DNA from: Candidatus Omnitrophota bacterium
GTDB lineage: Bacteria > Omnitrophota > Gorgyraeia > JABMRG01
Assembly: GCA_042577545.1 (NCBI GenBank)
Contig: JBHPDT010000001.1
Span: 15,453 to 79,452 of the forward strand
Length of the DNA stretch: 64,000 nt
Direction of reading: 5' to 3'
Part shown: positions 1,652 to 62,411 of the stretch, one piece after another
How the letters are laid out: each line of letters starts with the position of its first letter
How positions within the stretch are numbered: position 1 is the stretch's first letter
The notes under the pieces: model-generated
Databases searched by the model: none
The model's input: only the letters and a program-made list of their open reading frames with translations
Told to the model about the DNA's origin: nothing
Program-made: the position numbers and the translations under genes

Positions 1652-1727
1652 CCGGTTATCGGTTATCGGTTTTAGGTTTTCGCTTACATGTTACCGAAAA
1701 CCGTAAACCGCAAACCGAACACCGAAC
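1652..1727. repeat. Heptad-periodic palindromic element, CGGTTNN word
   Basis: Left arm ccggttatcggttatcggttttaggttttcg (1652-1682), right arm cgaaaaccgtaaaccgcaaaccgaacaccga (1695-1725). 24/31 complementary by hand alignment. Mismatches occur as dinucleotides about once per unit. Confidence 0.9.
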
Positions 1728-5891: not shown

Positions 5892-6710
5892 ATGCATAAA
5901 GTCGTTGAGGTAAAACAGAGAGAAGAAGGCAAGGTAGTACATTATCTTGTTGGTGATCTAAAGCCTACAGCTGGGGATTATGTGATTATCGAGTCTGATC
6001 GCGGCCTGGACTATGGGCAGGTGGTCTCTGCTGAAGAGATACTGCTTGATTCGAAGATGCTTCAGAATCCGATGCGCAAGATTGTGCGTATAGCGAATAA
6101 ACACGATATGGATAATGTAAACCGCAATAAACAGAAAGCGGAAGAGGTTATAAAGACCTGCAATAGGAAGATATCCGAGCATAAGCTTAATATGAAGCTT
6201 ATCGATGCTGAGCTCTCCTTTGATTGCAGCAAGATAATATTTTATTTTACCGCCGAGGAGCGTATAGATTTTAGGGAACTGGTAAAAGATCTTGCCAAAA
6301 TATTTAAGGCTCGAATAGAATTAAAACAGGTTGGCGTAAGAGATGAAGCGAGAATGTTTGGTGGTTTTGGACAATGTGGAAAAGAGCTTTGCTGCGCCAC
6401 ATTTTTAAAAGATTTTGAGCCTGTTACAATAAAGATGGCAAAGGATCAGAATTTGCCGTTAAATCCTACAAAGATCTCAGGTGTTTGTGGGCGCCTGATG
6501 TGCTGCCTCTCATATGAGCATAAGCATTATAAAGAGCGCGCTAAAGGACTACCGAGAGCAGGACAGAAGATTAAGACCCAGGAAGGGCAGGGCAAGGTAG
6601 TGGATGTTAATTATCTTAAGCGAATTGCCACTGTTGAGCTTGAGGATGGCAGACACCTGAAGATAGATTTTTGTAAAACATGTAAGACTGATAAAAATGC
6701 GAAGCACTAA
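5892..6710 (+). CDS. ricT: PSP1 C-terminal domain protein (RicT/YaaT-like)
   Basis: Cys-rich signature CGKELCCATFL..GVCGRLMCCLSYE. Position after tmk-holB as in Bacillus yaaT. Confidence 0.8.
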   Translation: MHKVVEVKQREEGKVVHYLVGDLKPTAGDYVIIESDRGLDYGQVVSAEEILLDSKMLQNPMRKIVRIANKHDMDNVNRNKQKAEEVIKTCNRKISEHKLNMKLIDAELSFDCSKIIFYFTAEERIDFRELVKDLAKIFKARIELKQVGVRDEARMFGGFGQCGKELCCATFLKDFEPVTIKMAKDQNLPLNPTKISGVCGRLMCCLSYEHKHYKERAKGLPRAGQKIKTQEGQGKVVDVNYLKRIATVELEDGRHLKIDFCKTCKTDKNAKH

Positions 6711-6836
6711 ATTCGAAATCCTAAATTCTAAACAATATCTAAATCCGAAATTCAAATGCTCCAAACCTGAGTTTTGTATTTTGGTAATTAGAGAATTAGG
6801 ATTTGTTTAGCATTTAGATATTAGGATTTAGAATTT
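6709..6836. repeat. Heptad-periodic palindromic element, AAATYCT word
   Basis: aaattcg aaatcct aaattct aaacaat.. on the left. Outer 16 nt (6709-6724) pair 15/16 with ttaggatttagaattt (6821-6836). Followed by RBS aaaggag of metG. Confidence 0.85.
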
Positions 6837-6860
6837 ATTGTTAAAGGAGCTGGTTGGCTG

Positions 6861-8393: not shown

Positions 8394-8416
8394 GGGAAAG
8401 CGACACGTATACTGTA

Positions 8417-8564
8417 GTAACCAGTTGCCAGTTGCCAGAAACCAGATAGCGATAAATTATTTCCTTTTTTGACGAATAATCAGCCATTTGATTAAAATAA
8501 AATAATCTCTTATTGTCCTGGCATCTGGTCATCTTCTGGTTACTGGTTACTGGTTTCTGGTTAC
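8417..8564. repeat. Heptad-periodic palindromic element, CTGGTNN word, with long AT-rich loop
   Basis: Left arm gtaaccagt tgccagt tgccaga aaccaga (8417-8446), right arm ..ctggtta ctggtta ctggttt ctggttac (8517-8564). Outer 8 nt are perfectly complementary. The loop holds ttccttttttgac, the reverse complement of gtcaaaaaaggaa seen at 22815-22827 and 22868-22880. Confidence 0.9.
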
Positions 8565-8591
8565 TAACTTAAAGTATCTACTGGTGTTAAT

Positions 8592-9818
8592 ATGGCAACC
8601 AACAAGACCCCCATATATTTAGATTATAACGCTACAACTCCACTCCACCCCGATGTCTTCAGAGCCATGGAGCCTTTTTTTAAGGACAAATATGGCAATG
8701 CCTCAAGCCAACATCGCAAGGGGAGGGAGGCAGAAGCTGCTCTTGAGGATTCTCGGGCAATAATAGGCAATGCTCTAGGCACTGAATCAGTTGATATTGT
8801 CTTTACATCCGGAGGCACTGAAAGCGATAACCTTGCTATAAAAGGTCTCTGTCTACGCAATAAAAGAGAAGGCGCGCACATTATAACCTCAACCATAGAA
8901 CACCCCGCTGTGCTAGAGACCTGTAAGTTTCTTGAGAAAGAGCTTGGATTTAATGTTACATATATTGGTGTTAATGAGCATGGCCTGATCAACCCTGCTA
9001 ATGTAGAGAATGCATTAACAGATAAGACTATACTCGTTACGATAATACACGCGAATAATGAGATCGGTACCATCCAGCCGATAAAAGAGATCTCCCAAAT
9101 TATCAGAGAATATAATAGTGCCTGCTGTTCGATCACCGCAAACCGCAAACCGCAAACCGCAAACAGGGTTCTCTTTCACACAGATGCTGTGCAATCATTC
9201 GGAAAGGTTTCGATAGATGTGCGGGAGCTTGGGGTCGATCTTCTTTCGATCTCAGGTCATAAGATATATGGCCCAAAGGGAGTCGGGGCCTTGTATATAA
9301 GAAAGGGCATTGAAATTATCCCCCATACTCATGGCGGGCACCATGAGAGAGGATTGCGGGCTGGAACAGATAATGTTCCTGGCATCGTTGGTCTTGGAAG
9401 AGCTGTTGAGATATTGAATAAGAACTATCATAGCAGGGAGCGCATAAGAGGTTTAAGAGACAGGCTAGAAAGATCTTTGCTAGAGGAGATTAGTGACAGC
9501 AGATTAAACGGAGATATAGAGACGAGGCTTTTTAATACATCTAATATAGGATTTAAAGGATTAGAAGGAGAGGCCCTGCTAATTAATCTAGATATGGAAG
9601 GTATCTACATATCAACCGGTTCCGCGTGTACATCACGCAGCATTACCCAATCTCATGTGCTTGAGGCTATGGGTGTTGATGAGGATTATATTAAAGGTTC
9701 AGTTAGGTTCTCTCTTGGTGAATCTAATACAGATAAAGATATAGATTATTGTGTTAGAAAGATACCCCCTCTCATAAAGCATCTTCGCAAGGCTTCAAAA
9801 ACCAGTTCGGACAAGTGA
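8592..9818 (+). CDS. nifS: Cysteine desulfurase (NifS/IscS class V aminotransferase)
   Basis: PLP-lysine motif SGHKIYGPKG, catalytic Cys loop STGSACTS, HTDAVQSFGK. Carries a repeat-encoded insertion (ITANRKPQTANR). Confidence 0.9.
   Translation: MATNKTPIYLDYNATTPLHPDVFRAMEPFFKDKYGNASSQHRKGREAEAALEDSRAIIGNALGTESVDIVFTSGGTESDNLAIKGLCLRNKREGAHIITSTIEHPAVLETCKFLEKELGFNVTYIGVNEHGLINPANVENALTDKTILVTIIHANNEIGTIQPIKEISQIIREYNSACCSITANRKPQTANRVLFHTDAVQSFGKVSIDVRELGVDLLSISGHKIYGPKGVGALYIRKGIEIIPHTHGGHHERGLRAGTDNVPGIVGLGRAVEILNKNYHSRERIRGLRDRLERSLLEEISDSRLNGDIETRLFNTSNIGFKGLEGEALLINLDMEGIYISTGSACTSRSITQSHVLEAMGVDEDYIKGSVRFSLGESNTDKDIDYCVRKIPPLIKHLRKASKTSSDK
9135..9162 (+). repeat. Intragenic heptanucleotide microsatellite (ACCGCAA x4) inside nifS
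   Basis: accgcaa accgcaa accgcaa accgcaa, four perfect copies read in frame as TANRKPQTAN. Same word as the right arms of the CGGTT elements. No left arm nearby. Confidence 0.9.
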
Positions 9819-9822
9819 TCTT

Positions 9823-10632
9823 ATGCTGATTGAGACACACGCTCACCTGGATTTTCCTGAATATAATAATGATCTCGATGATGTTATAAAGAGATCGAAG
9901 GAAGCTGGTGTAGAATATATTATCAATGTAGGCGCAAACATGGAAGGATCTTTGGCATCTGTTGAACTTAGTCGCAAGTATGATATGATCTTTGCCAGTT
10001 GCGGCATTCATCCTCATGATGCCTCAACTGTAAATAAGCAGAATATAGAAAAAATAAAGGATCTAGTAGGTGAATCTAAGAAGGTAGTTGCCATAGGGGA
10101 GATCGGCCTTGATTTTTATAGAAATCTTTCACCAAGAGATAAACAACTAGAGGTCTTTGAAGAATTTGTTCTATTGTCAAAAGAATGCGACCTTCCGTTA
10201 ATACTCCATTGCAGAGAAGAAGGGCCGAGCAAAAATGAGGCTTCAGAGTTAATATTTAAGATATTGGACAATAATCTTAAGAGACCCTTTAAGGCTGTAA
10301 TGCACTGTTTCTCTCAGAATGAAGATGTATTAAGAAAGTGCCTGGATCGGGGAATGCATATCTCTTTTACCTGTAATATTACTTATCCAAAGGCTGAGGA
10401 TTTAAGAGAGGTTTTAAAGTCCGTACCTTTAGATAGGCTCTTACTTGAGACTGATTCGCCCTTTCTATCGCCTCAAGTTCACAGGGGTAAGAGGAACGAG
10501 CCAGCATATTTGAGATATCTGGTAGATGAGATTGCGAGCGTCCTAAATATGCAAGCCTCAGAGATAGAGCGAATAACCACAGAAAACGCCAAGAAATTCT
10601 TTTGGGGACGTGCACAAAGGGGACAGGCTTGA
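9823..10632 (+). CDS. tatD: TatD-family metal-dependent hydrolase
   Basis: N-terminal IETHAHLDF, internal GEIGLDF, C-terminal LETDSPFL motifs. The last 10 codons plus stop lie in repeat arm 10603-10634. Confidence 0.85.
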   Translation: MLIETHAHLDFPEYNNDLDDVIKRSKEAGVEYIINVGANMEGSLASVELSRKYDMIFASCGIHPHDASTVNKQNIEKIKDLVGESKKVVAIGEIGLDFYRNLSPRDKQLEVFEEFVLLSKECDLPLILHCREEGPSKNEASELIFKILDNNLKRPFKAVMHCFSQNEDVLRKCLDRGMHISFTCNITYPKAEDLREVLKSVPLDRLLLETDSPFLSPQVHRGKRNEPAYLRYLVDEIASVLNMQASEIERITTENAKKFFWGRAQRGQA

Positions 10633-10738
10633 GCGCAAAAAAAGTTGAAAATTCAATAGAAAGTTTAAGATGAGTATTATTTTATCTAAGTTTTTGAAAA
10701 AATTATGCTCAAACCTGTCCCCTTTAGGACCGTCCCCA
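10603..10738. repeat. 136-bp MITE-like element with 32-bp terminal inverted repeats
   Basis: IR-L tggggacgtgcacaaaggggacaggcttgagc (10603-10634). IR-R gctcaaacctgtcccctttaggaccgtcccca (10707-10738), whose reverse complement is tggggacggtcctaaaggggacaggtttgagc. AT-rich 72-bp interior. Confidence 0.8.
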
Positions 10739-14236: not shown

Positions 14237-14894
14237 GAGATTCAGCATAGCATTGCTTGAGAACGATCTCTTAATAGATGAGATCGAATCGGGGGCTAAT
14301 AATAGTCACTCCTCCCAGCTCATCCCCGAGATCGATAAGATGCTATTGAAAAACTTACGCGGCATAAAGGATATCGATCTGTTTTGTGTCGGATTAGGAC
14401 CAGGTTCTTTTACCGGCTTACGGATAGGCCTTACTATTATGAGGGGTTTTGCGCTCTCTCTGAAGAGACCCATTATTGGTATACCCAGCATTGATAGCTT
14501 GGCATTTAATGTCTTGGGTCACCAAGGCCTTATCTGTCCAATAATAGACGCAAAACAGCATAAGGTCTACGCGAGATTTTATGAGTGCAAAGATCAGGAA
14601 GTAAGGTCTAAGGGCAAGATTCTTCTTACTCCTATCGCGGATTTACTGAAAAGCATAAAGAGGAATGTAATATTCCTGGGTGATGGATTATCTATATATA
14701 AAGATGATATAATAAGTAAAAAGTCTAGCCTGGCAGTATTTGCGCCAGAGACGACATGGTATCCAAAGGCGGCAATAATAGGACGATTGGGCGTAGATAG
14801 ATTTAGATCTGGCGGCAAGGATAATGTTTTTAATCTCACACCACTCTATATTTATCCGAAGGAATGCCAGGTGGCTACGCGGAAACAAAGGTAA
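14193..14894 (+). CDS. tsaB: tRNA t6A37 protein TsaB
   Basis: ASKHA-fold N-terminus ILTLSVDTSS, GPGSFTGLRIG. Overlaps tsaE by 44 nt. Confidence 0.8.
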   Translation: MAKDILTLSVDTSSKRFSIALLENDLLIDEIESGANNSHSSQLIPEIDKMLLKNLRGIKDIDLFCVGLGPGSFTGLRIGLTIMRGFALSLKRPIIGIPSIDSLAFNVLGHQGLICPIIDAKQHKVYARFYECKDQEVRSKGKILLTPIADLLKSIKRNVIFLGDGLSIYKDDIISKKSSLAVFAPETTWYPKAAIIGRLGVDRFRSGGKDNVFNLTPLYIYPKECQVATRKQR

Positions 14895-15012
14895 ATTAAA
14901 AAATCAAAAGTAAAAATGCAAAATTACAGTTCAAAATTCAAAAATTGAAACCACAAAAAAATTTTAAATTTTTAATTTCATTTTTTAATTTTTATTTTTT
15001 CATTTTTAATTA
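14894..15012. repeat. Heptad-periodic palindromic element, A/T-only word
   Basis: Left aaattaa aaaatca aaagtaa aaatgca aaattac.., right ..ttttaaa tttttaa tttcatt ttttaat ttttatt. The outer aattaaaaa / tttttaatt pair. Confidence 0.75.
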
Positions 15013-16240: not shown

Positions 16241-16276
16241 TTTAAAAAATTTTTCTTAATTTTCAACATTTTTTGT

Positions 16277-16308
16277 GCTCAGACCTGTCCCCTTTAGGAC
16301 CGTCCCCA
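16277..16308. repeat. Solo copy of the 32-bp inverted-repeat arm seen at 10707-10738
   Basis: gctcagacctgtcccctttaggaccgtcccca differs from the 10707-10738 arm at 2 positions. Upstream similarity also extends (tttt..a..ttttt.tgctca). Confidence 0.85.
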
Positions 16309-16347
16309 ATTACTATCAAATAAAAGTTTACTTTTTGCAAAATAGAA

Positions 16348-22673: not shown

Positions 22674-22687
22674 GGAGTGTACTAGAG

Positions 22688-22925
22688 AAACCAGAAACCT
22701 GTAACCAGTAACCAGGTCAGTCTAACAACATGTTCTTATATATTAGTAAGCAGAAACCTGTAACCAGAAACCAGAAAAAACATCTATATCGCCTGATCTG
22801 GTAATTGGCAACCGGTCAAAAAAGGAATTGGCTTATCATTAATCTGGTAACTGGTTACTGGCAACTGGTCAAAAAAGGAACTAGTTTAACTTTATCTGGT
22901 AACTGGTTACTGGCAACTGGTTACT
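22688..22925. repeat. Composite CTGGTNN-word element: two AACCAG arrays and three direct CTGGT-array units
   Basis: aaaccagaaacctgtaaccagtaaccagg (22688-22716), cagaaacctgtaaccagaaaccag (22751-22774), then three direct units starting atctggtaa at 22796, 22842 and 22894. The first two end in gtcaaaaaaggaa. Confidence 0.85.
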
Positions 22926-30089: not shown

Positions 30090-31577
30090 ATGATAAGATA
30101 TAACTCATCTGTTAATAGAGTAGTCGTGCTTGCGACCCTTGTGGCCGGTATATGCGCTATCTTCCTGCAACAATTTGCTACACACACTTTATACGGCATA
30201 GATGGGCATCTTCATATAAGAATGGCGCAATTTTTGCGAGACCTTGGTCCGCATTATCAATTCCATTGGGCTCGTTATTCAGTTTTCTTTGACAATTTTT
30301 CAGATAAAGATTTCTTGTACCACCTGATGTTGATACCTTTTACATGGTTTAAGGATATATTCTTTGGAGCAAAGATAGCCGCGGCGTTATTTGCTTCGAT
30401 CCTTTTTGCTGTTTATGCTCTTATGCTTAACAGGTACTCGGATTACAGGATACGCGTTTTTTTCATGCTTGCTTTTTTCTTATCTTATCCATTCTGCAAC
30501 TTCATAAGTTTCGCAAGGCCCATGACCGTTGTACTGTTTCTTACATTAGGCTTTTTCCATTTTGCTATTATTAGAAAGAGTTCAGTGGTATTTATAATAT
30601 CAATGATTTATACGTTAACGCACGTAACAGGGCCTATTATGATATTTTATGCCTTCATTATAGAGGCTGTAAGGTATCAGCATAAGAGGGAATTTTGTGT
30701 TAGAATGATTGCCATGGCTTTCTTCGGTGTTATTGCAGGCTTTCTTATACATCCAAATTTTCCAGCTAACATAAGAGTATTTTATCTAAACTCTATTTTA
30801 GTGCCGCTTTATTGTATCAAGGGAAGTAGTATAGAATTTCCGTCTGAATTCAGCCCTGCTAATACGAAGTATTTTATCATAGCGTATCCTATGGTATTCT
30901 TTAGCATAATCTATCTGATGTTTGCAGCTGTTTTTAACAAAGTAAGAACAAGCTTTGAAACCAAGGTTTTTTTTGTTTTAAGCCTGCCATTTTTAGCGCT
31001 TTCTATGACAGGAATCAGGTATGCTGTGCATTGCTATCTGATTCTGCTTCTTGCGGTTGCAGGATATATTACAGACAGCTTGAAACACAAAGAAAAGTTA
31101 AGCAGGTTTCTTATATCTGTAATGGTCATTTTGTCATTGGTTCTTGGGGCAAACTCTTTTGTAAAATTTAAGCATGGAACACGCTTTAATCATGCCATGA
31201 ATACTCACTATGAGCGTGTCGCGAACATATTTAAAGAGATCGTTCCAGAAGGTGAGATTATATTTCACGCCTCCTGGGGGGACTCACCGTTTTTTATAGG
31301 CTTGAATCCAAAGAATGATTATCTCGTCACGCTAGATCCTATCTATATGTATGCGTGGGATCCAAAATTCTATTATTTATATAAGAATCTCGTTCATGGT
31401 AAGACAAAAGACCCTTACACTATCATTAAGGAGAGATTTCGCACTAGATACGGTTACATAAGTATCAAGGTAACCACAGGTATAGAATTATATAAGCAGA
31501 TTATTAAGGATAAGCGATTTAGAATACTCTACAAGGATGATCTTGGCGTAATCTTTGTAATTAAAAATAACGAATAA
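30090..31577 (+). CDS. Uncharacterised polytopic membrane protein, paralog A (possible GT-C-like transferase or polymerase)
   Basis: 495 aa, ~11 hydrophobic segments plus a soluble C-terminus. ~55% aa identity by eye to ORF 33177-34649. Conserved loop-1 block YGIDGHLHIRMAQFLRDLGPHY..FSDKDFLYH. Confidence 0.6.
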   Translation: MIRYNSSVNRVVVLATLVAGICAIFLQQFATHTLYGIDGHLHIRMAQFLRDLGPHYQFHWARYSVFFDNFSDKDFLYHLMLIPFTWFKDIFFGAKIAAALFASILFAVYALMLNRYSDYRIRVFFMLAFFLSYPFCNFISFARPMTVVLFLTLGFFHFAIIRKSSVVFIISMIYTLTHVTGPIMIFYAFIIEAVRYQHKREFCVRMIAMAFFGVIAGFLIHPNFPANIRVFYLNSILVPLYCIKGSSIEFPSEFSPANTKYFIIAYPMVFFSIIYLMFAAVFNKVRTSFETKVFFVLSLPFLALSMTGIRYAVHCYLILLLAVAGYITDSLKHKEKLSRFLISVMVILSLVLGANSFVKFKHGTRFNHAMNTHYERVANIFKEIVPEGEIIFHASWGDSPFFIGLNPKNDYLVTLDPIYMYAWDPKFYYLYKNLVHGKTKDPYTIIKERFRTRYGYISIKVTTGIELYKQIIKDKRFRILYKDDLGVIFVIKNNE

Positions 31578-31608: not shown

Positions 31609-33180
31609 ATGAAAAACAAAAAAACCTATAAGCTAGCGGTCTTGCTTTTCTTTGTGATATATCTCGTTGTCGGCTTATCTATTTTTAAAGATTACGGAAT
31701 CTCATGGGATGAGCAGCTTCAAAGAAAAATAGGGGCATGGTCGCTAAGGTATATCTTGTTAGGAGATACTGATCTATTTTTATTTCCTGATAGACACTAT
31801 GGACCTTTTTTTGAGATGGTATTAATTGTTATTGAGATGGCCTTTAATCTTACAAATAATCTCAGGGCCTTATTCCTGATGCGCCACTTTGTGACTTTTC
31901 TACTTTTTTTCACAAGTACAATATTCTTCTATTTACTATGTAAAGACAAATTTAGTAGCTGGAAGTTAGGCCTTCTAGGTACACTATTTCTAATTTTAAA
32001 TCCCAGGATATTTGCTCATTCATTCTATAATTCAAAAGACATTGCTTTTTTGGCTATGTTTATAATAAGCGTATACACATTATTTGCCTATCTTAAGAGT
32101 AAAAAAATATACATGGCGGTTTTTCATGGATTGGCTTCAGCAATCTTAATCGATATACGTATTGTAGGCCTTTTGGTTCCTTTATTTACTTGTATGTTTA
32201 CTGTTGGCGATATAGTATTATTGAAAATGAATAAGAGGGGACGAACGCACGCGATTTTGAACTTTATTGTATATTTTGGTGTTTTTTTACCATTCATGGT
32301 TTTGTTTAGACCGCTCTTATGGTCCGATACGCTTGGAAATCTTACTAGAATATTTTTAGAGATGAAGAGTTACCCGATCAGTTATCCTATGTTATATATG
32401 GGCAAGAGCATAGTCTCAAAAGATCTCCCATGGCATTACATCCCTGTCTGGATAGCTATCTCAACTCCGCTAATTTATCTGGCAGGGTTTATAGTGGGAG
32501 TTTTCTTTATAGTAAAATATTTTTTTAAGGCCCCAACAATGTTTTATAGTGAATCTAAATTGGATCTAATCTCTCTTCTGTGGTTTTTCCTGCCTCTTAT
32601 CTCTGTTATAGGTTTAAGATCCGCTATGTATGATGCTTGGAGGCATATGTTTTTTATATATCCTGCGCTGACAATGATTTCATTATCAGGGTTAGTTTAT
32701 CTCTTCCGATATCTTAAATCAAAATCTGTAGTGCGTAATCGTATACTGAAATTTACTTTCATTTCTATTATATCAGCTGGTTTATCTACGACGACATATT
32801 TTATGATAAGATATCATCCATTTCAAAATGTATATTTTAATACATTGGCTGGAAGAGATATGAGCAGGGTAGGGGAGAGGTTTGAACTTGATTATTGGGG
32901 TCTATCGTATAAGCAGGCATTGGAATATATATTGAAAAATGATAAAGATGAGAATATCAAAGTCTGCGCGCATACGCCTCCCGGCTTATCCAATGTTTTA
33001 ATTTTGCCTACAGATAAATCAAAAAGGCTTAGCTTTGTTTTTGATGAGAATGACGCGAAGTATCTACTAACCAATTACAGATTTAATAAGGGCGATTACC
33101 CCTATGAAGAATATTATTCAATAAAGGTTAAGAGAGCAAGGATTCTAGGGGTCTATAAGATAGGTGATAAAAGGGCATGA
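31609..33180 (+). CDS. GT-C-fold glycosyltransferase (GT39/ArnT/PMT-like)
   Basis: 523 aa. First periplasmic loop DYGISWDE (acidic pair typical of GT-C), many TM segments, C-terminal soluble domain (FELDYWGLSYKQALEYI). Confidence 0.6.
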   Translation: MKNKKTYKLAVLLFFVIYLVVGLSIFKDYGISWDEQLQRKIGAWSLRYILLGDTDLFLFPDRHYGPFFEMVLIVIEMAFNLTNNLRALFLMRHFVTFLLFFTSTIFFYLLCKDKFSSWKLGLLGTLFLILNPRIFAHSFYNSKDIAFLAMFIISVYTLFAYLKSKKIYMAVFHGLASAILIDIRIVGLLVPLFTCMFTVGDIVLLKMNKRGRTHAILNFIVYFGVFLPFMVLFRPLLWSDTLGNLTRIFLEMKSYPISYPMLYMGKSIVSKDLPWHYIPVWIAISTPLIYLAGFIVGVFFIVKYFFKAPTMFYSESKLDLISLLWFFLPLISVIGLRSAMYDAWRHMFFIYPALTMISLSGLVYLFRYLKSKSVVRNRILKFTFISIISAGLSTTTYFMIRYHPFQNVYFNTLAGRDMSRVGERFELDYWGLSYKQALEYILKNDKDENIKVCAHTPPGLSNVLILPTDKSKRLSFVFDENDAKYLLTNYRFNKGDYPYEEYYSIKVKRARILGVYKIGDKRA

Positions 33181-34649
33181 GAAGAGATAACATAGAAATT
33201 TATAAATTATTGATAATTATAATCTTCATAGCCGGTATATCCGCTATTTTTCTAGTGCAGTTTGCTACGCCAACACTATACGGAACCGATGGATATCTCC
33301 ATATCAGGATGGCCCAGTTTTTGAGAGATCTTGGACCACACTACAAATTCCACTGGACTAAATATTCGATATTTTATGATAAGTTTTCAGATAAGGATTT
33401 CTTGTATCATCTATTGCTTATACCGTTTACATGGTGTAAGGATATATTTTTTGGGGCAAAGATAGCCGCTGCTTTTTTTGCTTCTTCACTATTTCTTGTA
33501 TTTTTCTTCTTATTGAACAAATATGCTGATAATAGAGTGCACCTGTTTTTTATGCTGGCTTTCTTTTTTTCCGCGTCATTTCTTCATGGAATCAGCTTAG
33601 CAAGACCCATGACACTTGTTATCTTAATAATTCTTTTGAGTACACATTTTGCTATCTTGCAAAAGCATGCCTGGGTTTTCTTGCTTTCAATTGCTTATAG
33701 TTTAGTTCATGTTACCGGACCTATAATTATAATTTATATAGCTATAGTTGAGTGTGTAAGATATAAGGAGAAGGGATTATTTAATTCAAAGACAGTGCTG
33801 GCTGCTATTTTAGGTGTTATAGTTGGCTTCCTTATTCACCCTAATTTTCCCAACAATTTAACAGTATTTTATCTTAACGCTATTCTTGTTCCTGTTCATT
33901 CATTGACCGGCAATAAGATCGGAATAGGGGCTGAGTTTATGCCGCTTGATACCAGGCAGGTAATACTTAATTATCCAGTTGTTTTGTTGGGGGTAGTTTT
34001 TATGATGTATATAGCTTTCTTCAAGAGTGTGGAGACCAGATTTCATACTCGAGTTTTCTTTATTGTTTCTTTACCATTTTTTATTATCTCCTTTGTTTCT
34101 AAGCGATATGCTTGGCACAGTTATCCATTCATGCTTGTTGCCTTTGCCTGCCTGTTTTCAGATTATTTAAGAACTTACCCTAGAGATAGGCTGAGATCCA
34201 ATATTTTATTGATGATTATATCGATCGTATTAATTCTAAATTCCGTTTTATGTTTTAAAAAGCACATAGAGTTTGATTCCGCGCTCAATAAACATTTTGA
34301 ATTTTTTGGATTTAATATGAAGCATGCAATACCCAAGGGTGAAACCGTATTCCATTCCGCGTGGTCCGATTCCCAATATTTTATTGGATTAAATCCCGAT
34401 AATGATTATATGGTGACCTTGGACCCAATATATATGCATGAAAAGGACCCGTATCTGTATAAGATATATAGAGATCTCTCTTTTGGCAGAGTTTCAGACC
34501 CTTATGATATACTGCAAAATGTTTTTGGCCTTAGGTACGGGTATGTGAACAAGAAGTGGAGAAGGTTGCTTTATGATCAGATCAGAGTAGACTCGAGATT
34601 TGAGATTATCTTTGAAGATCGCCTGGGTGCTATTTTTAAACTTTCATAA
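33177..34649 (+). CDS. Uncharacterised polytopic membrane protein, paralog B
   Basis: 490 aa, colinear with ORF 30090-31577 (YGTDGYLHIRMAQFLRDLGPHY..FSDKDFLYH..VTLDPIYM). Start overlaps the GT-C gene stop (ATGA at 33177-33180). Confidence 0.6.
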   Translation: MRRDNIEIYKLLIIIIFIAGISAIFLVQFATPTLYGTDGYLHIRMAQFLRDLGPHYKFHWTKYSIFYDKFSDKDFLYHLLLIPFTWCKDIFFGAKIAAAFFASSLFLVFFFLLNKYADNRVHLFFMLAFFFSASFLHGISLARPMTLVILIILLSTHFAILQKHAWVFLLSIAYSLVHVTGPIIIIYIAIVECVRYKEKGLFNSKTVLAAILGVIVGFLIHPNFPNNLTVFYLNAILVPVHSLTGNKIGIGAEFMPLDTRQVILNYPVVLLGVVFMMYIAFFKSVETRFHTRVFFIVSLPFFIISFVSKRYAWHSYPFMLVAFACLFSDYLRTYPRDRLRSNILLMIISIVLILNSVLCFKKHIEFDSALNKHFEFFGFNMKHAIPKGETVFHSAWSDSQYFIGLNPDNDYMVTLDPIYMHEKDPYLYKIYRDLSFGRVSDPYDILQNVFGLRYGYVNKKWRRLLYDQIRVDSRFEIIFEDRLGAIFKLS

Positions 34650-44448: not shown

Positions 44449-44635
44449 ATAATTTTAGGATTAAGTCGTAAGGATTAAGAATTAAGAATTTGTTGCTGCG
44501 ATACTTAATACTTAATACTTAATTTTTTATACTAAACAAGGATAATTTTAGGATTAAGTTGTAAGGATTAAGAATTAAGAATTTGTTGCTGCGATACTTA
44601 ATACTTAATCCTTAATCCTTAATACTAAACGAGGA
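44449..44635 (+). repeat. Tandem duplication (2 x ~93 bp) of a CTTAATN-word heptad palindrome including its RBS-like 3' flank
   Basis: Each unit is ataattttaggattaagtYgtaaggattaagaattaagaattt-gttgctgcg-atacttaatacttaat..actaaacRagg. Units start at 44449 and 44542. The second ends at the ilvB RBS. Confidence 0.9.
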
Positions 44636-44642
44636 TAATACC

Positions 44643-46316
44643 ATGAAAATGAAGGGCGCAAAGATACTAATAGAGTCATTATTAAAGGAGGATGTCGAAT
44701 GCATGTTCGGCTATCCAGGAGGTTCGGTCTTACCGATATTTGATGAGATATTTGAAGCTCCGATAAAATTTATTTTAACCAGGCATGAACAGGGTGCGGT
44801 ACACGCTGCAGACGGTTATGCTCGCGCAACAGGCAAGGTAGGCGTATGTCTTGCGACTTCTGGACCTGGAGCTACCAATCTTGTTACCGGTATTGCTACC
44901 GCATTTATGGATTCAGTGCCATTGGTTGCGATAACAGGTCAGGTTAAGACTTTTCTCATTGGAAATGACGCTTTTCAGGAAGCGGATGTTACTGGTATAA
45001 CCCGACCTATCTCAAAACATAACTACCTTGTTAAGGATGTTAATAACTTGGCTAATATTATAAAAGAGGCGTTCCACATCGCTAGAAGTGGAAGGCCCGG
45101 GCCTGTTGTTATCGATCTGCCTGTTGACGTTACAATGGCAGAAGCGGAGTTTAGCTATCCTGACGAGGTTAACATAAGAAGCTATAAGCCCGTTTATTTT
45201 GGCCATAGTGGTCAGATAAAGAAAGCTGCCAATGCTATTAAGGAATCTAAAAAACCTGTTATATATGCCGGTGGAGGAGTTATTATCTCAGAGGCGTCTG
45301 ATGAGCTGACCGCCCTTGCGCGAAAGACTAACATACCTGTTACAACCACATTGTTAGGTTTGGGAGCTTTTCCTGAGACCGATCCGCTAGCTTTACATAT
45401 GTTAGGTATGCATGGAACCGTTTATGCTAATCACGCTACGATGGATAGCGATCTTATCATAGCTGTTGGAGCAAGGTTCGAAGACAGGGTTACTGGAAAG
45501 CTCGATACATTTGCTCCGCATGCTAAGATCATTCATATAGATATAGATCCATCTAGTGTTAGTAAAAACGTCCATGTTCATATACCTATCGTTGGTGACG
45601 CCAAGAATATCTTAAGTGAATTGATTAAGATAGTTGAGAAGCCTGATACTCAAGCGTGGCTGAATCAGATAGATGAGTGGAAGAGTAAAGGGTCTTTAAA
45701 ATATGGAGAAAGCAGTGAGATAAAACCTCAGTATGTTGTTGAGCAGATCTACGAAGCTACTAAAGGTGATGCTATCATAGTTACTGAGGTTGGCCAGAAT
45801 CAGATGTGGGCTGCTCAGTATTACAAGTACACCAAACCGCGGACTTTTATATCCAGCGGCGGGCTGGGTACTATGGGATATGGTTTTCCAGCCGCTATTG
45901 GCGCGCAGATGGGTGCGCCTGATAAGGTAGTCTTTGATATTGCCGGAGACGGCAGTATACAGATGAATATTCAGGAGTTATCAACCGCTGTTTCGAATAA
46001 ACTTCCGGTTAATATAGCTATATTGAATAACTGTTATTTGGGGATGGTACGACAGTGGCAGGAGCTATTTTATAAGAAGAGATACTCGCATACATGTCTT
46101 GAGGCAGGATGCCCTGACTTTGTTAAATTAGCTGAGGCATATGGAGCGCTAGGGATGAGGATCTCTAAGAAGGAAGATGTTAGAGCTGCTATTGATAAGG
46201 CTGTTAATTCAAAGAATACTGTGGTCATGGATTTTCTTGTTGATAAGGAAGAGAACGTTTGGCCAATGGTTCCAGCTGGCGAGGCGATCAACCGCATGAT
46301 CGGGGGAATGGCTTAA
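44643..46316 (+). CDS. ilvB: Acetolactate synthase, large (catalytic) subunit
   Basis: ThDP enzyme with GDG..NN motif ([18 protein letters not shown]), [14 protein letters not shown]-terminus. Confidence 0.95.
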
Positions 46317-46412
46317 TTCGGTTTTCGGTTAGCGGTTCTCGGTTTTTCCGCCAAAGGCGGACCCGCCTCCGGCGGGCGTAACTACCGCACACCGTAAACC
46401 GCACACCGAACC
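46317..46412. repeat. CGGTTNN-word palindromic element carrying a GC-rich twin-hairpin core
   Basis: Arms ttcggttttcggttagcggttctcgg / ccgcacaccgtaaaccgcacaccgaacc. Core ccgcc-aaa-ggcgg a cccgcc-tcc-ggcggg (46348-46376). Positions 46333-46401 are 68/69 identical to 51552-51620. Confidence 0.9.
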
Positions 46413-46431
46413 ATAGAACAAGGATAAAAAA

Positions 46432-46902
46432 ATGAAACATATAATATCAGTTTTAGTTGAGAATAAGTTTGGAGTTCTGGCACGCGTTTCAGGCCTCTTT
46501 AGCGCAAGGGGTTTTAATATAGACTCATTAGCTGTAGGCGTGACAGAAGATCCTACAATATCCCGCATGACGATAGTTGTTAAAGGGGATGACAAGACTT
46601 TAGAGCAGGTTAAGAAACAGCTTAATAAGCTCATAGATGTTATCTCTGTAGGAGATTTTGCTAATAAAGAGCATATTGATAGAGAGCTTCTTTTGATAAA
46701 GGTCAATATTGATAAGGATGCAAAAAAAGCTGTTATTGACATATTAGAGAAAGCCCAGGCTACAATTATTAAGACAGCGGATGAGACTGTTACGGCGCAG
46801 ATAGCTTGTGATCAGGACCAGATATCGGAGCTTTTCAGTAGTCTTAATGAGTATGGCATTAAGGAGATAGTCAGGACAGGCCGTATCGCCATGGCGTTGT
46901 AA
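46432..46902 (+). CDS. ilvN: Acetolactate synthase, small (regulatory, ACT-domain) subunit
   Basis: HIISVLVENKFGVLARVSGLFSARGFNIDSL ACT signature. Follows ilvB. Confidence 0.9.
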   Translation: MKHIISVLVENKFGVLARVSGLFSARGFNIDSLAVGVTEDPTISRMTIVVKGDDKTLEQVKKQLNKLIDVISVGDFANKEHIDRELLLIKVNIDKDAKKAVIDILEKAQATIIKTADETVTAQIACDQDQISELFSSLNEYGIKEIVRTGRIAMAL

Positions 46903-46918
46903 CGCGTAATACAAACGT

Positions 46919-47057
46919 CTTCGGTTATCGGTTTGCGGTTAGCGGTTCTCGGAAAAACGTTGGCCGTAAACCGCACACCGAAAACCGTAAACCGAATTTA
47001 TATCGGTTCCCAGAAATGCAGTAGCCGTAAACCGTAAACCGAAAACCGAACACCGAA
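46919..47057. repeat. CGGTTNN-word element with one left arm and two right arms
   Basis: Left cttcggttatcggtttgcggttagcggttctcgg (46919-46952). Right 1 ccgtaaaccgcacaccgaaaaccgtaaaccgaa (46964-46996). Right 2 ccgtaaaccgtaaaccgaaaaccgaacaccgaac (47024-47057). Confidence 0.9.
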
Positions 47058-47078
47058 CTATAGAACAAGGAGCTGCAA

Positions 47079-48077
47079 ATGGCAAAGATTTATTATGACA
47101 AGGACGCGGATCTAGAACTTCTAAAAAGTAAGAAGGTGGCAATAATAGGCTATGGTATTCAAGGCAGGGGCCAGGGCCTTAATTTAAAAGATAGCGGTAT
47201 CGATGTTATTATATCTGAGTTGGAAGGCACGCCAAATTATGAGCAGGCTATCAAAGATGGTTTTAAGCCTGTTTCAGCGCAGGAAGCTGCCAAAGAGGCT
47301 GATATAATTCAGATATTGACCCAGGATCATGTTCAGGCAATGGTTTATAATGAATCTATAGCGCCAAACCTAAAAGATGGAGATGCCCTGGTTTTTTCAC
47401 ACGGATTCAACATACACTTTAAGCAGATAGTTCCTCCAAAGAACGTGGATGTTCTTATGGTAGCGCCAAAAGGTCCTGGCGCGCTAGTAAGGCAGATGTA
47501 TGTTGAAGACAAAGGCGTTCCCTGTCTTATCGCGATATTTCAGGAATTTAGTGGTAAGGCGCTGGAAATAGGGTTAGCATATGCTAAGGGCATAGGTGGT
47601 ACTAGGGCAGGCGTAATTGAGACAACGTTTGCTGAGGAGACAGAGACAGATCTCTTTGGTGAGCAGGTTGTTCTATGCGGCGGCGCTACAGAGCTGATCA
47701 AGGCGGGCTTTGAGACGCTCGTTGCTGCCGGTTATCAGCCTGAAATAGCGTATTTTGAATGTCTGCATGAGCTTAAGCTCATAACAGATCTAATTTATAA
47801 ACATGGCATAACAGGTATGCGTAATCGCGTATCTGATACTGCTGAGTATGGTGACTATTCTCGGGGCAACAGGGTTGTGGATCAGAAGACCAGAGATACA
47901 ATGAAGACTATATTATCTGAAATACAGTCTGGTAAATTTGCCAAAGAGTGGATCGATGAGAATAAGAACGGCAGAAAGAACTTTAATTCTATGCGAGAGA
48001 AAGAATCTCAGCATATGATAGAATCAGTGGGCAAAGAGTTGCGTGAACTTATGCCCTGGATGAAGAGCGAAGAATAA
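47079..48077 (+). CDS. ilvC: Ketol-acid reductoisomerase (class I)
   Basis: Rossmann [20 protein letters not shown], metal-binding region [11 protein letters not shown]. Confidence 0.95.
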
Positions 48078-48081
48078 ACGT

Positions 48082-48272
48082 TTCGTATCTCGTTGTTCGT
48101 ATCTTGTATCTCGAAAAAACACTTGAACGAGAAGGAGGCGAGATACGAGATACGAGATACTAGATACGGAAACATGTGAACAAGAAGATAGCTAGATACG
48201 GAAACAGCAGAACAAGAAAAAACAAGTGGAACTAGCTTAAGCGAGATACGAGATACTAGATACGAGATACGA
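48082..48272. repeat. ~190-bp CGTATCT/GAGATAC-word composite element, copy A
   Basis: Left arm ttcgtatctcgttgttcgtatcttgtatctcg (48082-48113). GAGATAC arrays at 48139-48168 and 48241-48272, plus a short one at 48191-48200. Left arm pairs 27/32 with 48241-48272. Modules shared with 54606-54800. Confidence 0.9.
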
Positions 48273-48275
48273 ATT

Positions 48276-51528: not shown

Positions 51529-51542
51529 TGGATACGAATGTT

Positions 51543-51626
51543 TTCGGTTATCGGTTCTCGGTTTTTCCGCCAAAGGCGGACCCGCCTCCGGCGGGCGTAA
51601 CTACCGCGCACCGTAAACCGAACACC
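51543..51626. repeat. CGGTTNN-word element with GC-rich twin-hairpin core, second copy
   Basis: ttcggttatcggttctcggtttttccgccaaaggcggacccgcctccggcgggcgtaactaccgcgcaccgtaaaccgaacacc. Core at 51567-51597. Followed by tagaacaaggagg, the RBS of aroC. Confidence 0.9.
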
Positions 51627-51652
51627 TAGTTTTAGAACAAGGAGGAACAATA

Positions 51653-52774: not shown

Positions 52775-52824
52775 TTGTTGTAATATTGTCTGGCAAATAG
52801 CTGTAAAAATATGTATATATCAAA

Positions 52825-52916
52825 GAAACCAGAAACCAGAAACCAGTAACCAGAAACCAGAAGATACCAGATATCAGGAAAAACTAATCTGGAAACTGGC
52901 AACTGGCAACTGGTTA
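52825..52916. repeat. Heptad-periodic palindromic element, CTGGTNN word (asymmetric arms)
   Basis: gaaacca gaaacca gaaacca gtaacca gaaacca gaagata ccagata tcagg, then a loop, then atctgga aactggc aactggc aactggtta. Confidence 0.9.
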
Positions 52917-54589: not shown

Positions 54590-54605
54590 CGTACGCGTAA
54601 TATAC

Positions 54606-54800
54606 ACGTTTTGTATCTCGTTGTTCGTATCTAGTATTTCAAAAAACAGCTGCACAAGACAAAAATGAGATACAGAAACACCAGAACAAGAAAAAACAAG
54701 CCGAACTAGTTTAAACGAGATACGAGATACTAGATGCGAGATACGAAAACATGTAAACAAGAAGGAAATAAGATACGAGATACTAGATACCAGATACGAA
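54606..54800. repeat. ~195-bp CGTATCT/GAGATAC-word composite element, copy B
   Basis: Shares with copy A the blocks acgttYtgtatctcgttgttcgtatct, gaaacaNcagaacaagaaaaaacaagNNgaactagYtta, cgagatacgagatactagatRcgagatacga and aaacatgtRaacaagaag, in partly different order. Confidence 0.85.
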
Positions 54801-59850: not shown

Positions 59851-59987
59851 ATCGGTTATCGGTTATCGGTTTACGGTGTTCGCAAAATACACTAACTGCA
59901 GACTGCGTTTAACGAAAAATTAGGTTCGGTTATCGGTTTTTGGTTTACGGAAATGTATTAGCCGTACACCGTACACCGTAAACCGAT
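59851..59987. repeat. CGGTTNN-word element with two left arms and one right arm
   Basis: atcggttatcggttatcggtttacggtgttcg (59851-59882), ggttcggttatcggtttttggtttacgg (59923-59950), ccgtacaccgtacaccgtaaaccgat (59962-59987). Confidence 0.9.
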
Positions 59988-59993
59988 AAAAAT

Positions 59994-62411
<2,418 letters not shown>

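What the first reader, a model, noticed from the sequence alone, without database searches (positions are those of the whole stretch)
46317..46412. 69-nt module with a GC-rich twin-triloop core is 68/69 identical at two loci (upstream of ilvN and of aroC)
Seen:
- 46333-46401 and 51552-51620 differ at one position.
- The shared sequence is cggttctcggtttttCCGCCaaaGGCGGaCCCGCCtccGGCGGGcgtaactaccgcRcaccgtaaaccg.
- The core forms two adjacent mini-hairpins (5-bp stem with AAA loop, 6-bp stem with UCC loop). It is embedded in the CGGTT/AACCG heptad stem, which predicts a multi-helix junction.
- The two half-sites are near-repeats of each other (CCGCC-N3-GGCGG), so cross-pairing is also possible.
- The GC content is strikingly above the AT-rich background.
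- Near-identity over 69 nt contrasts with the 75-85% arm complementarity of other elements. This implies recent copying or strong constraint.

Inference: a structured RNA or DNA motif, such as a protein-binding platform, processing signal or the recognition hairpin of a mobilising enzyme.
Basis: partly seen in the sequence, partly recalled or inferred. Interest (0 to 1): 0.65.

Follow-up and report, generated by a model that had tools for sequence, protein, structure and literature searches.

The report
Thirty-base twin-hairpin DNA insertion element
The GC-rich core is a copy of a 30-base palindromic DNA insertion found almost letter-perfect in many uncultivated bacterial phyla, even inside essential genes, so it looks like a very small, apparently undescribed selfish element rather than a regulatory RNA.

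Summary
Positions 46333-46401 and 51552-51620 are 68/69 identical, and the similarity extends to 100/111.

The module is a composite of two things.
- A 30-nt element, T-CCGCC-AAA-GGCGG-A-CCCGCC-TCC-GGCGGG, at 46347-46376 and 51566-51595.
- The tip of a CGGTT-type "heptad-arm" hairpin, one of many filling operon spacers in this Omnitrophota genome.

A pattern scan found the 30-mer in at least 117 stretches of species-representative genomes, mostly Patescibacteria/CPR, Omnitrophota and Planctomycetes-labelled MAGs. A symmetric sister family turned up in at least 120 metagenome contigs.

Key properties of the copies:
- They are exact 30-nt insertions without target duplication, placed 3' of a T-run.
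- They occur in both orientations.
- They lie in spacers, in loops of dead tRNA copies (often beside small GIY-YIG nuclease genes), and in frame inside RecG, UvrA, SecA and aminoacyl-tRNA synthetase genes.
- In genes, 56 of 62 use the one frame that encodes S/P-A-x-G-G-P/S-A-x-G-G.

Syntenic relatives lack the element. Rfam and the searched literature hold nothing.

Best reading: a DNA-level selfish palindromic insertion whose mobilising enzyme is unidentified. The window's two copies arose by duplication of hairpin plus element. An RNA function is not supported.

The parts
46347..46376 (+). 30-nt twin-hairpin insertion element, copy 1 (TCCGCCAAAGGCGGACCCGCCTCCGGCGGG): hairpin 1 is T-CCGCC/AAA/GGCGG-A, hairpin 2 is C-CCGCC/TCC/GGCGG-G
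   Evidence: It matches the family consensus T-CCGCC-NNA-GGCGG-A-C-CCGCC-TNN-GGCGG-G derived from 125 copies. As ssDNA it folds into twin hairpins.
51566..51595 (+). 30-nt twin-hairpin insertion element, copy 2, identical to copy 1 including both loops
46317..46346 (+). Left heptad arm of the host hairpin, copy 1 (TTCGGTT TTCGGTT AGCGGTT CTCGGTT TT). Its terminal T-run is the insertion site.
   Evidence: TRF period 7, repeat families D3/I15, folds.
46377..46412 (+). Right heptad arm, copy 1 (CGTAACT ACCGCAC ACCGTAA ACCGCAC ACCGAAC)
51541..51565 (+). Left heptad arm, copy 2 (TTTTCGGTTATCGGTTCTCGGTTTT)
51596..51628 (+). Right heptad arm, copy 2
46321..46431 (+). Whole duplicated spacer module 1 (hairpin, element and RBS block ATAGAACAAGGA) between the ilvB stop (46316) and the ilvN start (46432)
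   Evidence: 100/111 identical to 51540-51650. Genes identified.
51540..51650 (+). Whole duplicated spacer module 2, between the A24 prepilin-peptidase gene (ends 51528) and aroC (starts 51653)
1653..1726 (+). CGGTT-type heptad hairpin without the element. Its tip GGTTTT^CGCTTAC resembles the filled tips GGTTTT^[30-mer]CGTAAC, making it the closest 'empty' paralogue in the window.
46921..46996 (+). Neighbouring CGGTT-type heptad hairpin (ilvN-ilvC spacer) without the element

Best explanation
Shown:
- The GC-rich core is a 30-nt DNA insertion belonging to a very large family with almost invariant sequence.
- Consensus of the asymmetric form: T-CCGCC-NNA-GGCGG-A-C-CCGCC-TNN-GGCGG-G. A symmetric sister form ends ...GGCGG-A-T-CCGCC-TNN-GGCGG-A.
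- The family is dispersed over uncultivated bacterial lineages.
- Copies are exactly 30 nt and make no target-site duplication.
- They lie immediately 3' of a short T-run (about 5'-TTT^CA), with a fixed orientation relative to that T-run.

Inferred:
- It behaves as a non-autonomous selfish element that acts at the DNA level.
- It is probably inserted as, or into, single-stranded DNA. Its two small hairpins would then be the feature that a trans-acting enzyme recognises.
- Copies survive only where they are harmless: spacers, tips of existing hairpins, loops of redundant tRNA fragments, and coding regions in the one reading frame that gives a flexible Ser/Pro-Ala-x-Gly-Gly decapeptide.

In this window:
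- One copy landed in the T-rich tip of a CGGTT-type heptad hairpin.
- The composite spacer module (hairpin, element and RBS) was then copied to a second operon spacer. That explains the 68/69 identity.

The mobilising enzyme is not identified. A stand-alone GIY-YIG nuclease is the only enriched neighbour. An HUH-type single-strand transposase is the closest mechanistic analogue.
For: Family size and spread:
By record title these were 51 CPR/Patescibacteria, 18 Omnitrophota, 11 Planctomycetes-labelled and 6 Kiritimatiellota/Lentisphaerota, plus smaller groups. Host loci ranged from 27-60% GC.
- The symmetric form hit at least 120 metagenome contigs.

Insertion anatomy:
- Left flank is T at position -1 in 113/125 copies, at -2 in 89 and at -3 in 103. 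Right flank position +2 is A in 80/125.
- 18 paralogous empty-site matches, for 16 element copies, lie in the same loci. All fit an exact 30-nt insert with no duplication. Examples are the D-loop CAGTT^GGTTAG (L023) and the anticodon loop CTTG^AAAA (L099).

DNA-level, not RNA-level:
- Inside long ORFs, 19/21 asymmetric and 37/41 symmetric copies use frame TCC GCC NNA GGC GGA CCC GCC TNN GGC GGG or its complement. Both orientations are used, 11 versus 8 for the asymmetric form.
- Host genes include RecG, UvrA, SecA, LeuRS, IleRS, MetRS, PyrG and PheT.
- Solved RecG structures (1gm5, 9wm0) and CTP synthase (1vcm) show a gap opposite the insert.
- Of the 120 closest RecG homologues, only 8-9 carry it at that site. 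L077 lacks the insert where L109 RecG carries one.

Hairpin constraint:
- The closing pair of hairpin 2 is C..G or T..A. There were 231 T..A strand matches and 0 C..A.
- L119 has a compensated CCAGCC..GGCTGG variant.

Not ancestral here:
- Five syntenic relatives (78-82% LeuA identity) have no unit at all.

Orientation:
- The element's T-run strand has positive GC skew in 56/88 loci (p = 0.014), and in 28/39 loci with strong skew. That fits a target on the lagging-strand template. Both window copies agree.

Enzyme lead:
- GIY-YIG ORFs (Pfam PF01541, E 9e-16) are the only enriched neighbour family: 16 loci, median distance 9 nt.
Against: - No mobilising enzyme is established. GIY-YIG genes abut only about 10% of asymmetric copies and 1/120 symmetric ones. 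No transposase-like family is enriched.
- No filled/empty polymorphism within a single population was shown.
- Stems are letter-perfect even at a RecG site shared by proteins only 55-60% identical. That hints at selection or sequence maintenance beyond simple parasitism, or at repeated insertion into a hot spot.
- The vehicle for cross-phylum spread is unknown. There was only one hit, a doubtful one, in 2.9 million viral contigs.
- The window holds only two copies, both in one duplicated module, so mobility in this particular genome is not demonstrated.
- The replication-strand bias is modest and uncorrected.
- Taxon labels of many MAG records are unverified.
Confidence: 0.7

Rival explanations
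1. A structured RNA motif in the ilvBN and aro operon transcripts, acting as a processing site, mRNA stabiliser, attenuator or protein platform. The twin triloop hairpins would be the functional core.
For: - The whole hairpin is very stable as RNA (-45.7 and -40.5 kcal/mol, z -4.65 and -3.26).
- It lies between a stop codon and the next RBS, inside operons.
- Both window copies are in the sense orientation.
Against: - No Rfam match, even at E <= 10.
- No terminator-like tail.
- The same spacers in syntenic relatives are 16-27 nt long, or hold unrelated hairpins without the core.
- Family members occur in both orientations within coding regions and inside dead tRNA fragments.
- Loop bases vary freely.
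Confidence: 0.05
2. A host-useful DNA binding site. Each 15-bp unit TCCGCC-NNN-GGCGGA is a palindromic operator-like site for a conserved dimeric protein (nucleoid, replication, recombination or restriction-modification related). Copies would be kept because the protein needs them.
For: - Stems are almost invariant across phyla, while the four loop positions vary.
- Each unit is a perfect dyad, and the unit also occurs singly (47 solo units against 199 twins).
- Conservation persists in copies that look old.
Against: - Positions are not conserved between relatives.
- Copies interrupt essential genes at unrelated places and sit in pseudo-tRNAs.
- Close relatives of the window organism have none in about 100 kb.
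- The closing-pair covariation fits intrastrand hairpins, which a duplex binding site does not require.
Confidence: 0.12
3. A by-product of free-standing GIY-YIG homing cassettes. The hairpin would be the cassette end or an immunity scar that breaks the nuclease's target in the displaced tRNA fragment. Solo copies would be leftovers.
For: - In 12-13 of 117 loci the hairpin lies 0-15 nt from a roughly 85-aa GIY-YIG ORF.
- The architecture is consistently [tRNA fragment with the hairpin in its D or anticodon loop] - ORF - [intact tRNA].
- The hairpin lies 3-10 nt from the end of the duplicated tRNA segment.
Against: - About 90% of copies have no GIY-YIG gene within kilobases, and only 1/120 in the symmetric family is adjacent.
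- Cassettes flanked by tRNA repeats exist without the hairpin (L112).
- Hairpin-bearing pseudo-tRNA pieces exist without the ORF (L233, L116, L027, L014, L138).
- Hairpin orientation follows the T-run, not the ORF.
- Copies in coding regions have no cassette remnants.
Confidence: 0.1
4. Nothing more than a recent local duplication of one spacer, with the palindromic core being a chance feature of that spacer.
For: Only two copies lie in the 64-kb window. They share 100/111 positions, including identical loops.
Against: More than 230 further copies of the same 30-mer exist in unrelated genomes and contexts. None is expected by chance in the window.
Confidence: 0.02

Closest known systems
Rickettsia palindromic elements (RPE; 'selfish DNA in protein-coding genes', Ogata et al. 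2000; from my own knowledge, papers listed were not read)
   Same: - Palindromic repeats that insert in frame into essential protein genes and RNA genes as well as spacers.
- They add a tolerated peptide.
- No transposase is known.
   Different: - RPEs are about 100-150 nt, restricted to Rickettsia, and diverge in sequence.
- This element is 30 nt, nearly invariant, spread over several phyla, and shows a defined T-run target.
Mitochondrial GC clusters of yeasts and double-hairpin elements (DHE) of fungal and chytrid mitochondria (from my own knowledge; the papers surfaced were not read)
   Same: - Short GC-rich palindromes in AT-rich genomes that fold into one or two hairpins.
- They are dispersed in spacers, RNA genes and, in frame, in coding genes.
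- Mobility is inferred from filled and empty sites.
   Different: - Those are organellar, with variable length (about 26-80 nt) and sequence classes.
- Some GC clusters make target duplications.
- Here the hosts are free-living or episymbiotic bacteria, the length is fixed at 30 nt, and there is no duplication.
REP/REPIN elements mobilised by RAYT (HUH Y1) transposases (from my own knowledge)
   Same: - Hairpin repeats of 20-40 nt, often as doublets.
- They are non-autonomous and recognised as single-stranded hairpins.
- They are very abundant in spacers.
   Different: - REPs carry a conserved 5' GTAG-type head, are strictly extragenic, and flank their RAYT gene.
- Here there is no such head, copies lie inside genes, and no Y1 gene is enriched nearby.
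IS200/IS605 family and its palindrome-associated derivatives (PATE), with single-strand transposition (from my own knowledge)
   Same: - No target duplication.
- Strand-specific insertion 3' of a short target sequence.
- A hairpin at each end.
- Preference for the lagging-strand template, compared with the skew bias.
   Different: - Known elements are longer than 100 nt, with guide sequences next to the hairpins and a TnpA gene somewhere in the genome.
- Here the two hairpins abut with 1 nt between them, and no TnpA link is shown.
Bacterial MITEs such as Correia, ERIC and BOX (from my own knowledge; the review surfaced was not read)
   Same: Small non-autonomous repeats that can be co-transcribed and fold into hairpins.
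   Different: MITEs have terminal inverted repeats derived from an IS, make target duplications, and are 50-500 nt long. None of these holds here.
Heptamer tandem repeats: cyanobacterial STRR (from my own knowledge) and intergenic TAACTGA repeats of Beggiatoaceae, Cyanobacteria and Bacteroidetes (PMC4679880, abstract read). Relevant to the host hairpin's arms only.
   Same: Tandem 7-nt units concentrated in intergenic regions just upstream of start codons, with a patchy phylogenetic distribution and unknown function.
   Different: - Those are direct repeats of essentially one heptamer.
- Here, inverted sets of heptads form long hairpins, with several heptad families per genome and different families in close relatives.

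Membership tests
The 30-nt twin-hairpin insertion family defined here (no published name found) | Sequence T-CCGCC-NNA-GGCGG-A-C-CCGCC-TNN-GGCGG-G, 30 nt long | tested here: met
   Both window copies match every specified position.
The 30-nt twin-hairpin insertion family defined here (no published name found) | Lies directly 3' of a T-run, in fixed orientation | tested here: met
   Window flanks are GGTTTT^ in both copies. The family has T at -1, -2 and -3 in 113, 89 and 103 of 125 copies.
The 30-nt twin-hairpin insertion family defined here (no published name found) | Exact insertion relative to an empty site, with no target duplication | tested here: inconclusive
   This is shown for 16 copies elsewhere. 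In the window, no orthologous or paralogous empty site with the same tip exists. The closest is the tip at 1680-1700. Relatives have different spacers.
REP/REPIN-RAYT | Conserved 5' tetranucleotide head (GTAG-like) next to the hairpin | tested here: not met
   The 5' neighbour is a T-run and no conserved head is present.
REP/REPIN-RAYT | Strictly extragenic location | tested here: not met
   About a quarter to a third of copies lie inside long ORFs of housekeeping genes.
REP/REPIN-RAYT | A RAYT (Y1 transposase) gene flanked by the repeats | tested here: inconclusive
   No such family appears among the ORF clusters within 2.5 kb of 237 loci. Whole genomes were not available.
MITE | Terminal inverted repeats plus a target-site duplication | tested here: not met
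   Empty-site comparisons show no duplication. The whole element consists of two hairpins.
IS200/IS605-type single-strand transposon or PATE | No target duplication, and insertion 3' of a specific short sequence on one strand | tested here: met
   There is also a modest bias of the element strand towards positive GC skew.
IS200/IS605-type single-strand transposon or PATE | Cognate TnpA (Y1 HUH) in the genome, and guide sequences beside the subterminal hairpins | not testable with these tools
   Whole genomes of hp-bearing organisms could not be retrieved. There is no room for guide sequences in a 30-mer (sequence inspection).
Rickettsia palindromic elements | Sequence and size class of the RPE families (about 100-150 nt, Rickettsia) | tested here: not met
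   The element is 30 nt long and its hosts are other phyla. The resemblance is functional only.
Any Rfam RNA family | Covariance-model match | tested here: not met
   No hit at gathering thresholds in the whole window, and none credible at E <= 10 around the element.
Intrinsic transcription terminator | GC-rich hairpin followed by a T-run | tested here: not met
   The T-run precedes the hairpins, and no terminator-like site is called at either locus.

The most novel reading that the evidence does not exclude
The 30-mer is the smallest known autonomous-enzyme-dependent transposable unit in bacteria. It consists only of two recognition hairpins and is moved through single-stranded DNA by a small stand-alone nuclease, with the roughly 85-aa GIY-YIG protein as the candidate. 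That protein also builds tRNA-duplicating cassettes. This would be a new mobilisation mechanism, shared horizontally among CPR, Omnitrophota and PVC bacteria, that writes the same decapeptide into essential proteins.
Probability: 0.2. Interest if true: 0.92.

Novelty: new variant of a known kind. Interest (0 to 1): 0.78.

Why it matters
- If confirmed, this is a pan-phylum selfish element of only 30 nt, confined to lineages that have never been cultivated. That may be why it escaped description.
- It inserts the same Gly-rich decapeptide into RecG, UvrA, SecA and aminoacyl-tRNA synthetases. It also marks dead tRNA copies and decorates spacer hairpins. It therefore affects gene calling, protein alignments, tRNA annotation and phylogenomics of CPR and Omnitrophota genomes.
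- Its exact length, missing target duplication and T-run target make the question of what moves it directly testable. A small GIY-YIG nuclease is a concrete candidate.
- Its near-invariant stems across phyla are a useful marker of horizontal exchange among episymbiotic bacteria.
- For the window itself, it shows that the ilvB-ilvN and aroC spacers are recent mobile-DNA constructs, not conserved regulators.

Tried and rejected
- **Rfam:** searched at gathering thresholds (whole window) and at E <= 10 (46250-46480). Nothing found.
- **Source contig:** look-ups through the window's own IlvN and LeuA proteins were not on record.
- **Orthologous spacers in five relatives:** no core, so no comparative alignment or covariance model of the composite could be built.
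- **Metagenome scan for the window-specific composite GGTTTTT-[30-mer]-CGTAAC:** 0 hits.
- **Viral contigs:** one hit, in a high-GC contig and probably chance.
- **Covariation of the two loop dinucleotides** (single long hairpin model): 19/125 Watson-Crick against 14.5 ± 3.4 in shuffles, not significant. The closing-pair test then favoured the twin-hairpin reading.
- **General preference for hairpin tips:** enriched only in the asymmetric family, where 16 or more of 24 flank pairs occur in 6.7% of copies against 0.2% of controls, driven by Omnitrophota heptad hairpins. It is not seen in the symmetric family.
- **Another enzyme near the copies:** ORF clustering within 2.5 kb gave only GIY-YIG plus recurrently hit housekeeping genes.
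- **GIY-YIG ORF in the window:** none found.
- **Near-identical RecG homologues as an empty allele:** P0122 and P0124 turned out to carry a 48-aa gap and were uninformative.
- **L077 site in RecG:** L109 has other residues of similar length there, so it is not a clean empty site.
- **Terminator reading:** rejected.
- **Literature searches:** by sequence, by peptide and by topic, none found a description.
- **Likely chance matches:** seven to eight pattern hits in genomes of 60-75% GC with a non-consensus middle base.

Full report
**1. The observation**

The two stretches are as described. Positions 46333-46401 and 51552-51620 differ only at 46389/51608 (A versus G). Ungapped similarity runs to 100/111 over 46321-46431 versus 51540-51650. 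The 29-nt core CCGCCAAAGGCGGACCCGCCTCCGGCGGG occurs twice in the window, with none expected by chance. It is 83% G+C in a 40% G+C window.

NCBIfam identifies the neighbouring genes.
- Copy 1 sits between the ilvB stop and the ilvN start.
- Copy 2 sits between a prepilin-peptidase (A24) gene and aroC.

As RNA, the whole spacer folds into a long hairpin, at -45.7 and -40.5 kcal/mol with z-scores of -4.65 and -3.26. Its tip holds either the twin mini-hairpins or, for copy 1, a cross-paired single hairpin. As single-stranded DNA, the twin hairpins dominate.

**2. Context in the window**

The window comes from a Candidatus Omnitrophota MAG. Almost all genes are on the + strand. Most spacers longer than 100 nt contain long imperfect hairpins whose arms are tandem 7-nt repeats. 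There are 18 period-7 arrays against 0 in shuffles, and none at neighbouring periods.

Several heptad families coexist: CGGTTNN, GAGATAC, CTGGTWA, TTAAGNA and others. The finding's two loci are CGGTT-type hairpins. Other CGGTT hairpins (1653-1726, 46921-46996, 59851-59985, 60893-60970) lack the GC core.

**3. Relatives**

Five contigs from relatives (78-82% LeuA identity) keep the gene order ilvD-ilvB-ilvN-ilvC-leuA-aroE-A24-aroC.
- One relative has plain spacers of 16-27 nt.
- Others have heptad hairpins at the same spacers, but built from different heptads.
- None contains even a single CCGCC-N3-GGCGG unit.

The module is therefore neither ancestral nor needed for these operons.

**4. The core is a member of a huge family**

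Counting record titles gives:
- 51 Patescibacteria/CPR
- 18 Omnitrophota
- 11 Planctomycetes-labelled
- 6 Kiritimatiellota/Lentisphaerota
- 5 Chloroflexota
- 7 "uncultured Gammaproteobacteria"
- a few others, plus 6-8 probable chance hits in genomes of 60-75% GC.

The true copies share unsearched features.
- A at the third position of loop 1.
- A between the hairpins.
- T at the first position of loop 2.
- A T-rich 5' flank: T at -1, -2 and -3 in 113, 89 and 103 of 125 copies.
- A at +2 in 80 of 125 copies.

The four remaining loop bases vary freely. A second scan that excluded the terminal G found a symmetric sister family...GGCGG-A-T-CCGCC-TNN-GGCGG-A, in at least 120 metagenome contigs.

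Diverged copies are rare in the roughly 1 Mb of genome-scan loci examined. Single hairpin units occur, but much less often than twins: 47 against 199.

**5. It is an insertion, exactly 30 nt, without target duplication**

The same loci hold 18 paralogous empty-site matches, for 16 element copies. Every one fits "one base plus the 29-mer" and shows no duplicated target.

Many of these sites are loops of partial tRNA gene copies lying beside the intact tRNA. Examples are the D-loop CAGTT^GGTTAG, the anticodon loop CTTG^AAAA, and a T-loop.

The element's orientation follows the T-run. It reads T-CCGCC... on whichever strand carries 5'-TT^.

**6. It acts at the DNA level**

A quarter to a third of copies lie inside long ORFs. 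Of 62 such copies in loci below 60% GC, 56 use the frame TCC GCC NNA GGC GGA CCC GCC TNN GGC GGG or its complement. These encode S-A-x-G-G-P-A-x-G-G or P-A-x-G-G-S-A-x-G-G. The two orientations are about equally frequent.

The hosts are housekeeping genes: RecG, UvrA, SecA, LeuRS, IleRS, MetRS, PyrG, PheT, FtsK and PilB.
- Alignment to solved RecG structures and to CTP synthase shows a gap opposite the insert.
- Among the 120 closest homologues of one RecG, 8-9 carry the insert at that site, some in decayed form. About 110 have the plain site.

Equal use of both orientations, in-frame survival and occurrence in dead tRNA pieces argue against an RNA function. Rfam has no match, and there is no terminator signature.

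**7. Structure**

Complementarity of the two loop dinucleotides, which a single long hairpin would require, is not above shuffled expectation.

The closing pair of hairpin 2 does covary. It is C..G in one family and T..A in the other, with 231 T..A strand matches and no C..A intermediates. One locus has a compensated CCAGCC..GGCTGG stem. This favours two local hairpins, meaning a tandem pair of 15-nt palindromic units.

**8. Mechanism (inferred)**

Four features resemble single-strand (HUH-type) transposition and REP-like elements (my own knowledge of those systems).
- Fixed length.
- No target duplication.
- Strand-specific placement after a T-run.
- Hairpin ends.

The element's strand shows a modest bias towards positive GC skew, in 56/88 loci (p = 0.014) and in 28/39 loci with strong skew. 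Both window copies follow it. This is consistent with a target on the lagging-strand template.

No transposase family is enriched near copies. The only enriched neighbour is a stand-alone GIY-YIG ORF of about 85 aa (Pfam E 9e-16).
- In 12-13 loci it lies 0-15 nt from the hairpin.
- The architecture is [hairpin-interrupted tRNA fragment] - ORF - [intact tRNA].

Such cassettes also exist without the hairpin. Hairpin-bearing pseudo-tRNAs exist without the ORF. About 90% of copies have no GIY-YIG gene nearby. The simplest reading is that redundant tRNA stem-loops are excellent, harmless targets. A causal role for the nuclease remains a lead.

**9. The window's copies**

Both copies lie at GGTTTT^, at the tip of CGGTT hairpins. 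In another Omnitrophota genome (BS750m-G21), seven copies lie at or beside heptad-repeat hairpins of other sequence, five of them at the tip with 17-21 of 24 flank pairs.

The two window copies have identical loops (AAA and TCC). Across the family that combination is expected in about 3% of copies. Their flanks are also nearly identical. The composite spacer module was therefore most likely duplicated or gene-converted between the two spacers after a single insertion.

**10. Novelty**

Searches by sequence, by peptide and by topic found no description. The library is incomplete, so prior description elsewhere cannot be excluded.

The kind of element is known: selfish palindromic repeats that even enter genes in frame. 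Examples are Rickettsia RPEs, mitochondrial GC clusters and double-hairpin elements. The heptad arms recall heptamer repeats such as TAACTGA/STRR.

This family differs in four ways.
- Its minimal fixed size.
- Near-invariant sequence across phyla.
- A T-run target with no target duplication.
- Its association with tRNA fragments and GIY-YIG genes.

I rate it a new variant of a known kind, with high interest.

Noticed in passing
window, spacers at 1653-1726, 6695-6837, 8416-8565, 9135-9164, 14893-15011, 22686-22925, 44457-44626, 46317-47057, 48082-48272, 52824-52913, 54610-54799, 59851-59985, 60893-60970: Most operon spacers hold long hairpins whose two arms are inverted sets of tandem 7-nt repeats. 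There are at least six heptad families, and 18 period-7 arrays against 0 in shuffles. Syntenic relatives have none, or hairpins of other heptad sequence, at the same spacers. I know of no described equivalent. How symmetric heptad arms arise, and why the heptad differs between relatives, is unexplained.
   Followed up: partly
window 48067-48275 vs 54595-54750; 8416-8473 vs 22868-22925 (inverted); 44449-44634 (93 nt x 2 tandem): Whole heptad-hairpin spacers are repeated at 85-94% identity between unrelated operon junctions, and once in tandem. The hairpin modules themselves therefore seem to be copied around the genome.
   Followed up: no
window 46412-46424, 47058-47071, 51630-51643: Three CGGTT-type spacer modules end in the same block (T)ATAGAACAAGGAG just before the start codon. 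The copied module appears to bring its own ribosome-binding site.
   Followed up: no
window 10602-10738 and 16245-16309; L003 1-152 and 624-761; L007 133-212; L006 11534-11717, 12525-12617, 18468-18535: A second kind of repeated GC-rich hairpin (GGGGAC...GTCCCC; in relatives GGGACTGTCCC and GGCGGGAC...GTCCCGCC) recurs in spacers of this Omnitrophota clade.
   Followed up: no
L099 3300-3740, L100 3530-3925, L103 7490-7880, L023 225-700, L078, L060, L111, L112: Stand-alone GIY-YIG ORFs of about 85 aa are flanked by direct repeats of tRNA gene segments, with one intact tRNA and one fragment. In the tRNA-Ser(TGA) cassettes the ORF runs into the intact tRNA and stops at the TGA anticodon. This looks like a free-standing homing cassette that restores its tRNA target by duplication.
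   Followed up: partly
L233 1880-1960, L116, L027 2950-3070, L014 6290-6400, L138 11300-11450, L119 3280-3500, L032 and L094: Short pseudo-tRNA pieces of 15-50 nt carrying the 30-mer in a loop lie 7-100 nt upstream of the intact tRNA, with no ORF between them. L119 has two elements in one tRNA copy, in the anticodon loop and the T loop. A filled copy next to an empty copy 26-400 nt away is a recurrent pattern, and its origin is unclear.
   Followed up: partly
L026, L036, L061, L077, L109 and proteins P0121-P0240: RecG is hit in 10 loci at several positions. At HG(K/R)(L/M)^K the DNA stems are perfect in proteins only 55-60% identical, while decayed versions (PAKDGSAVGG, PSKPGPAE) also exist. 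The explanation is either a hot spot or DNA-level maintenance of the palindrome.
   Followed up: partly
L003 13201-13399: A Y1 (IS200/IS605-type) transposase gene lies at the end of a relative's contig that is rich in TAGCG-type heptad hairpins. A link between HUH enzymes and the heptad hairpins was not examined.
   Followed up: no
window 30090-30389 vs 33177-33476: A 300-nt direct repeat at 73% identity lies at the starts of two adjacent large genes, probably paralogous genes in tandem.
   Followed up: no
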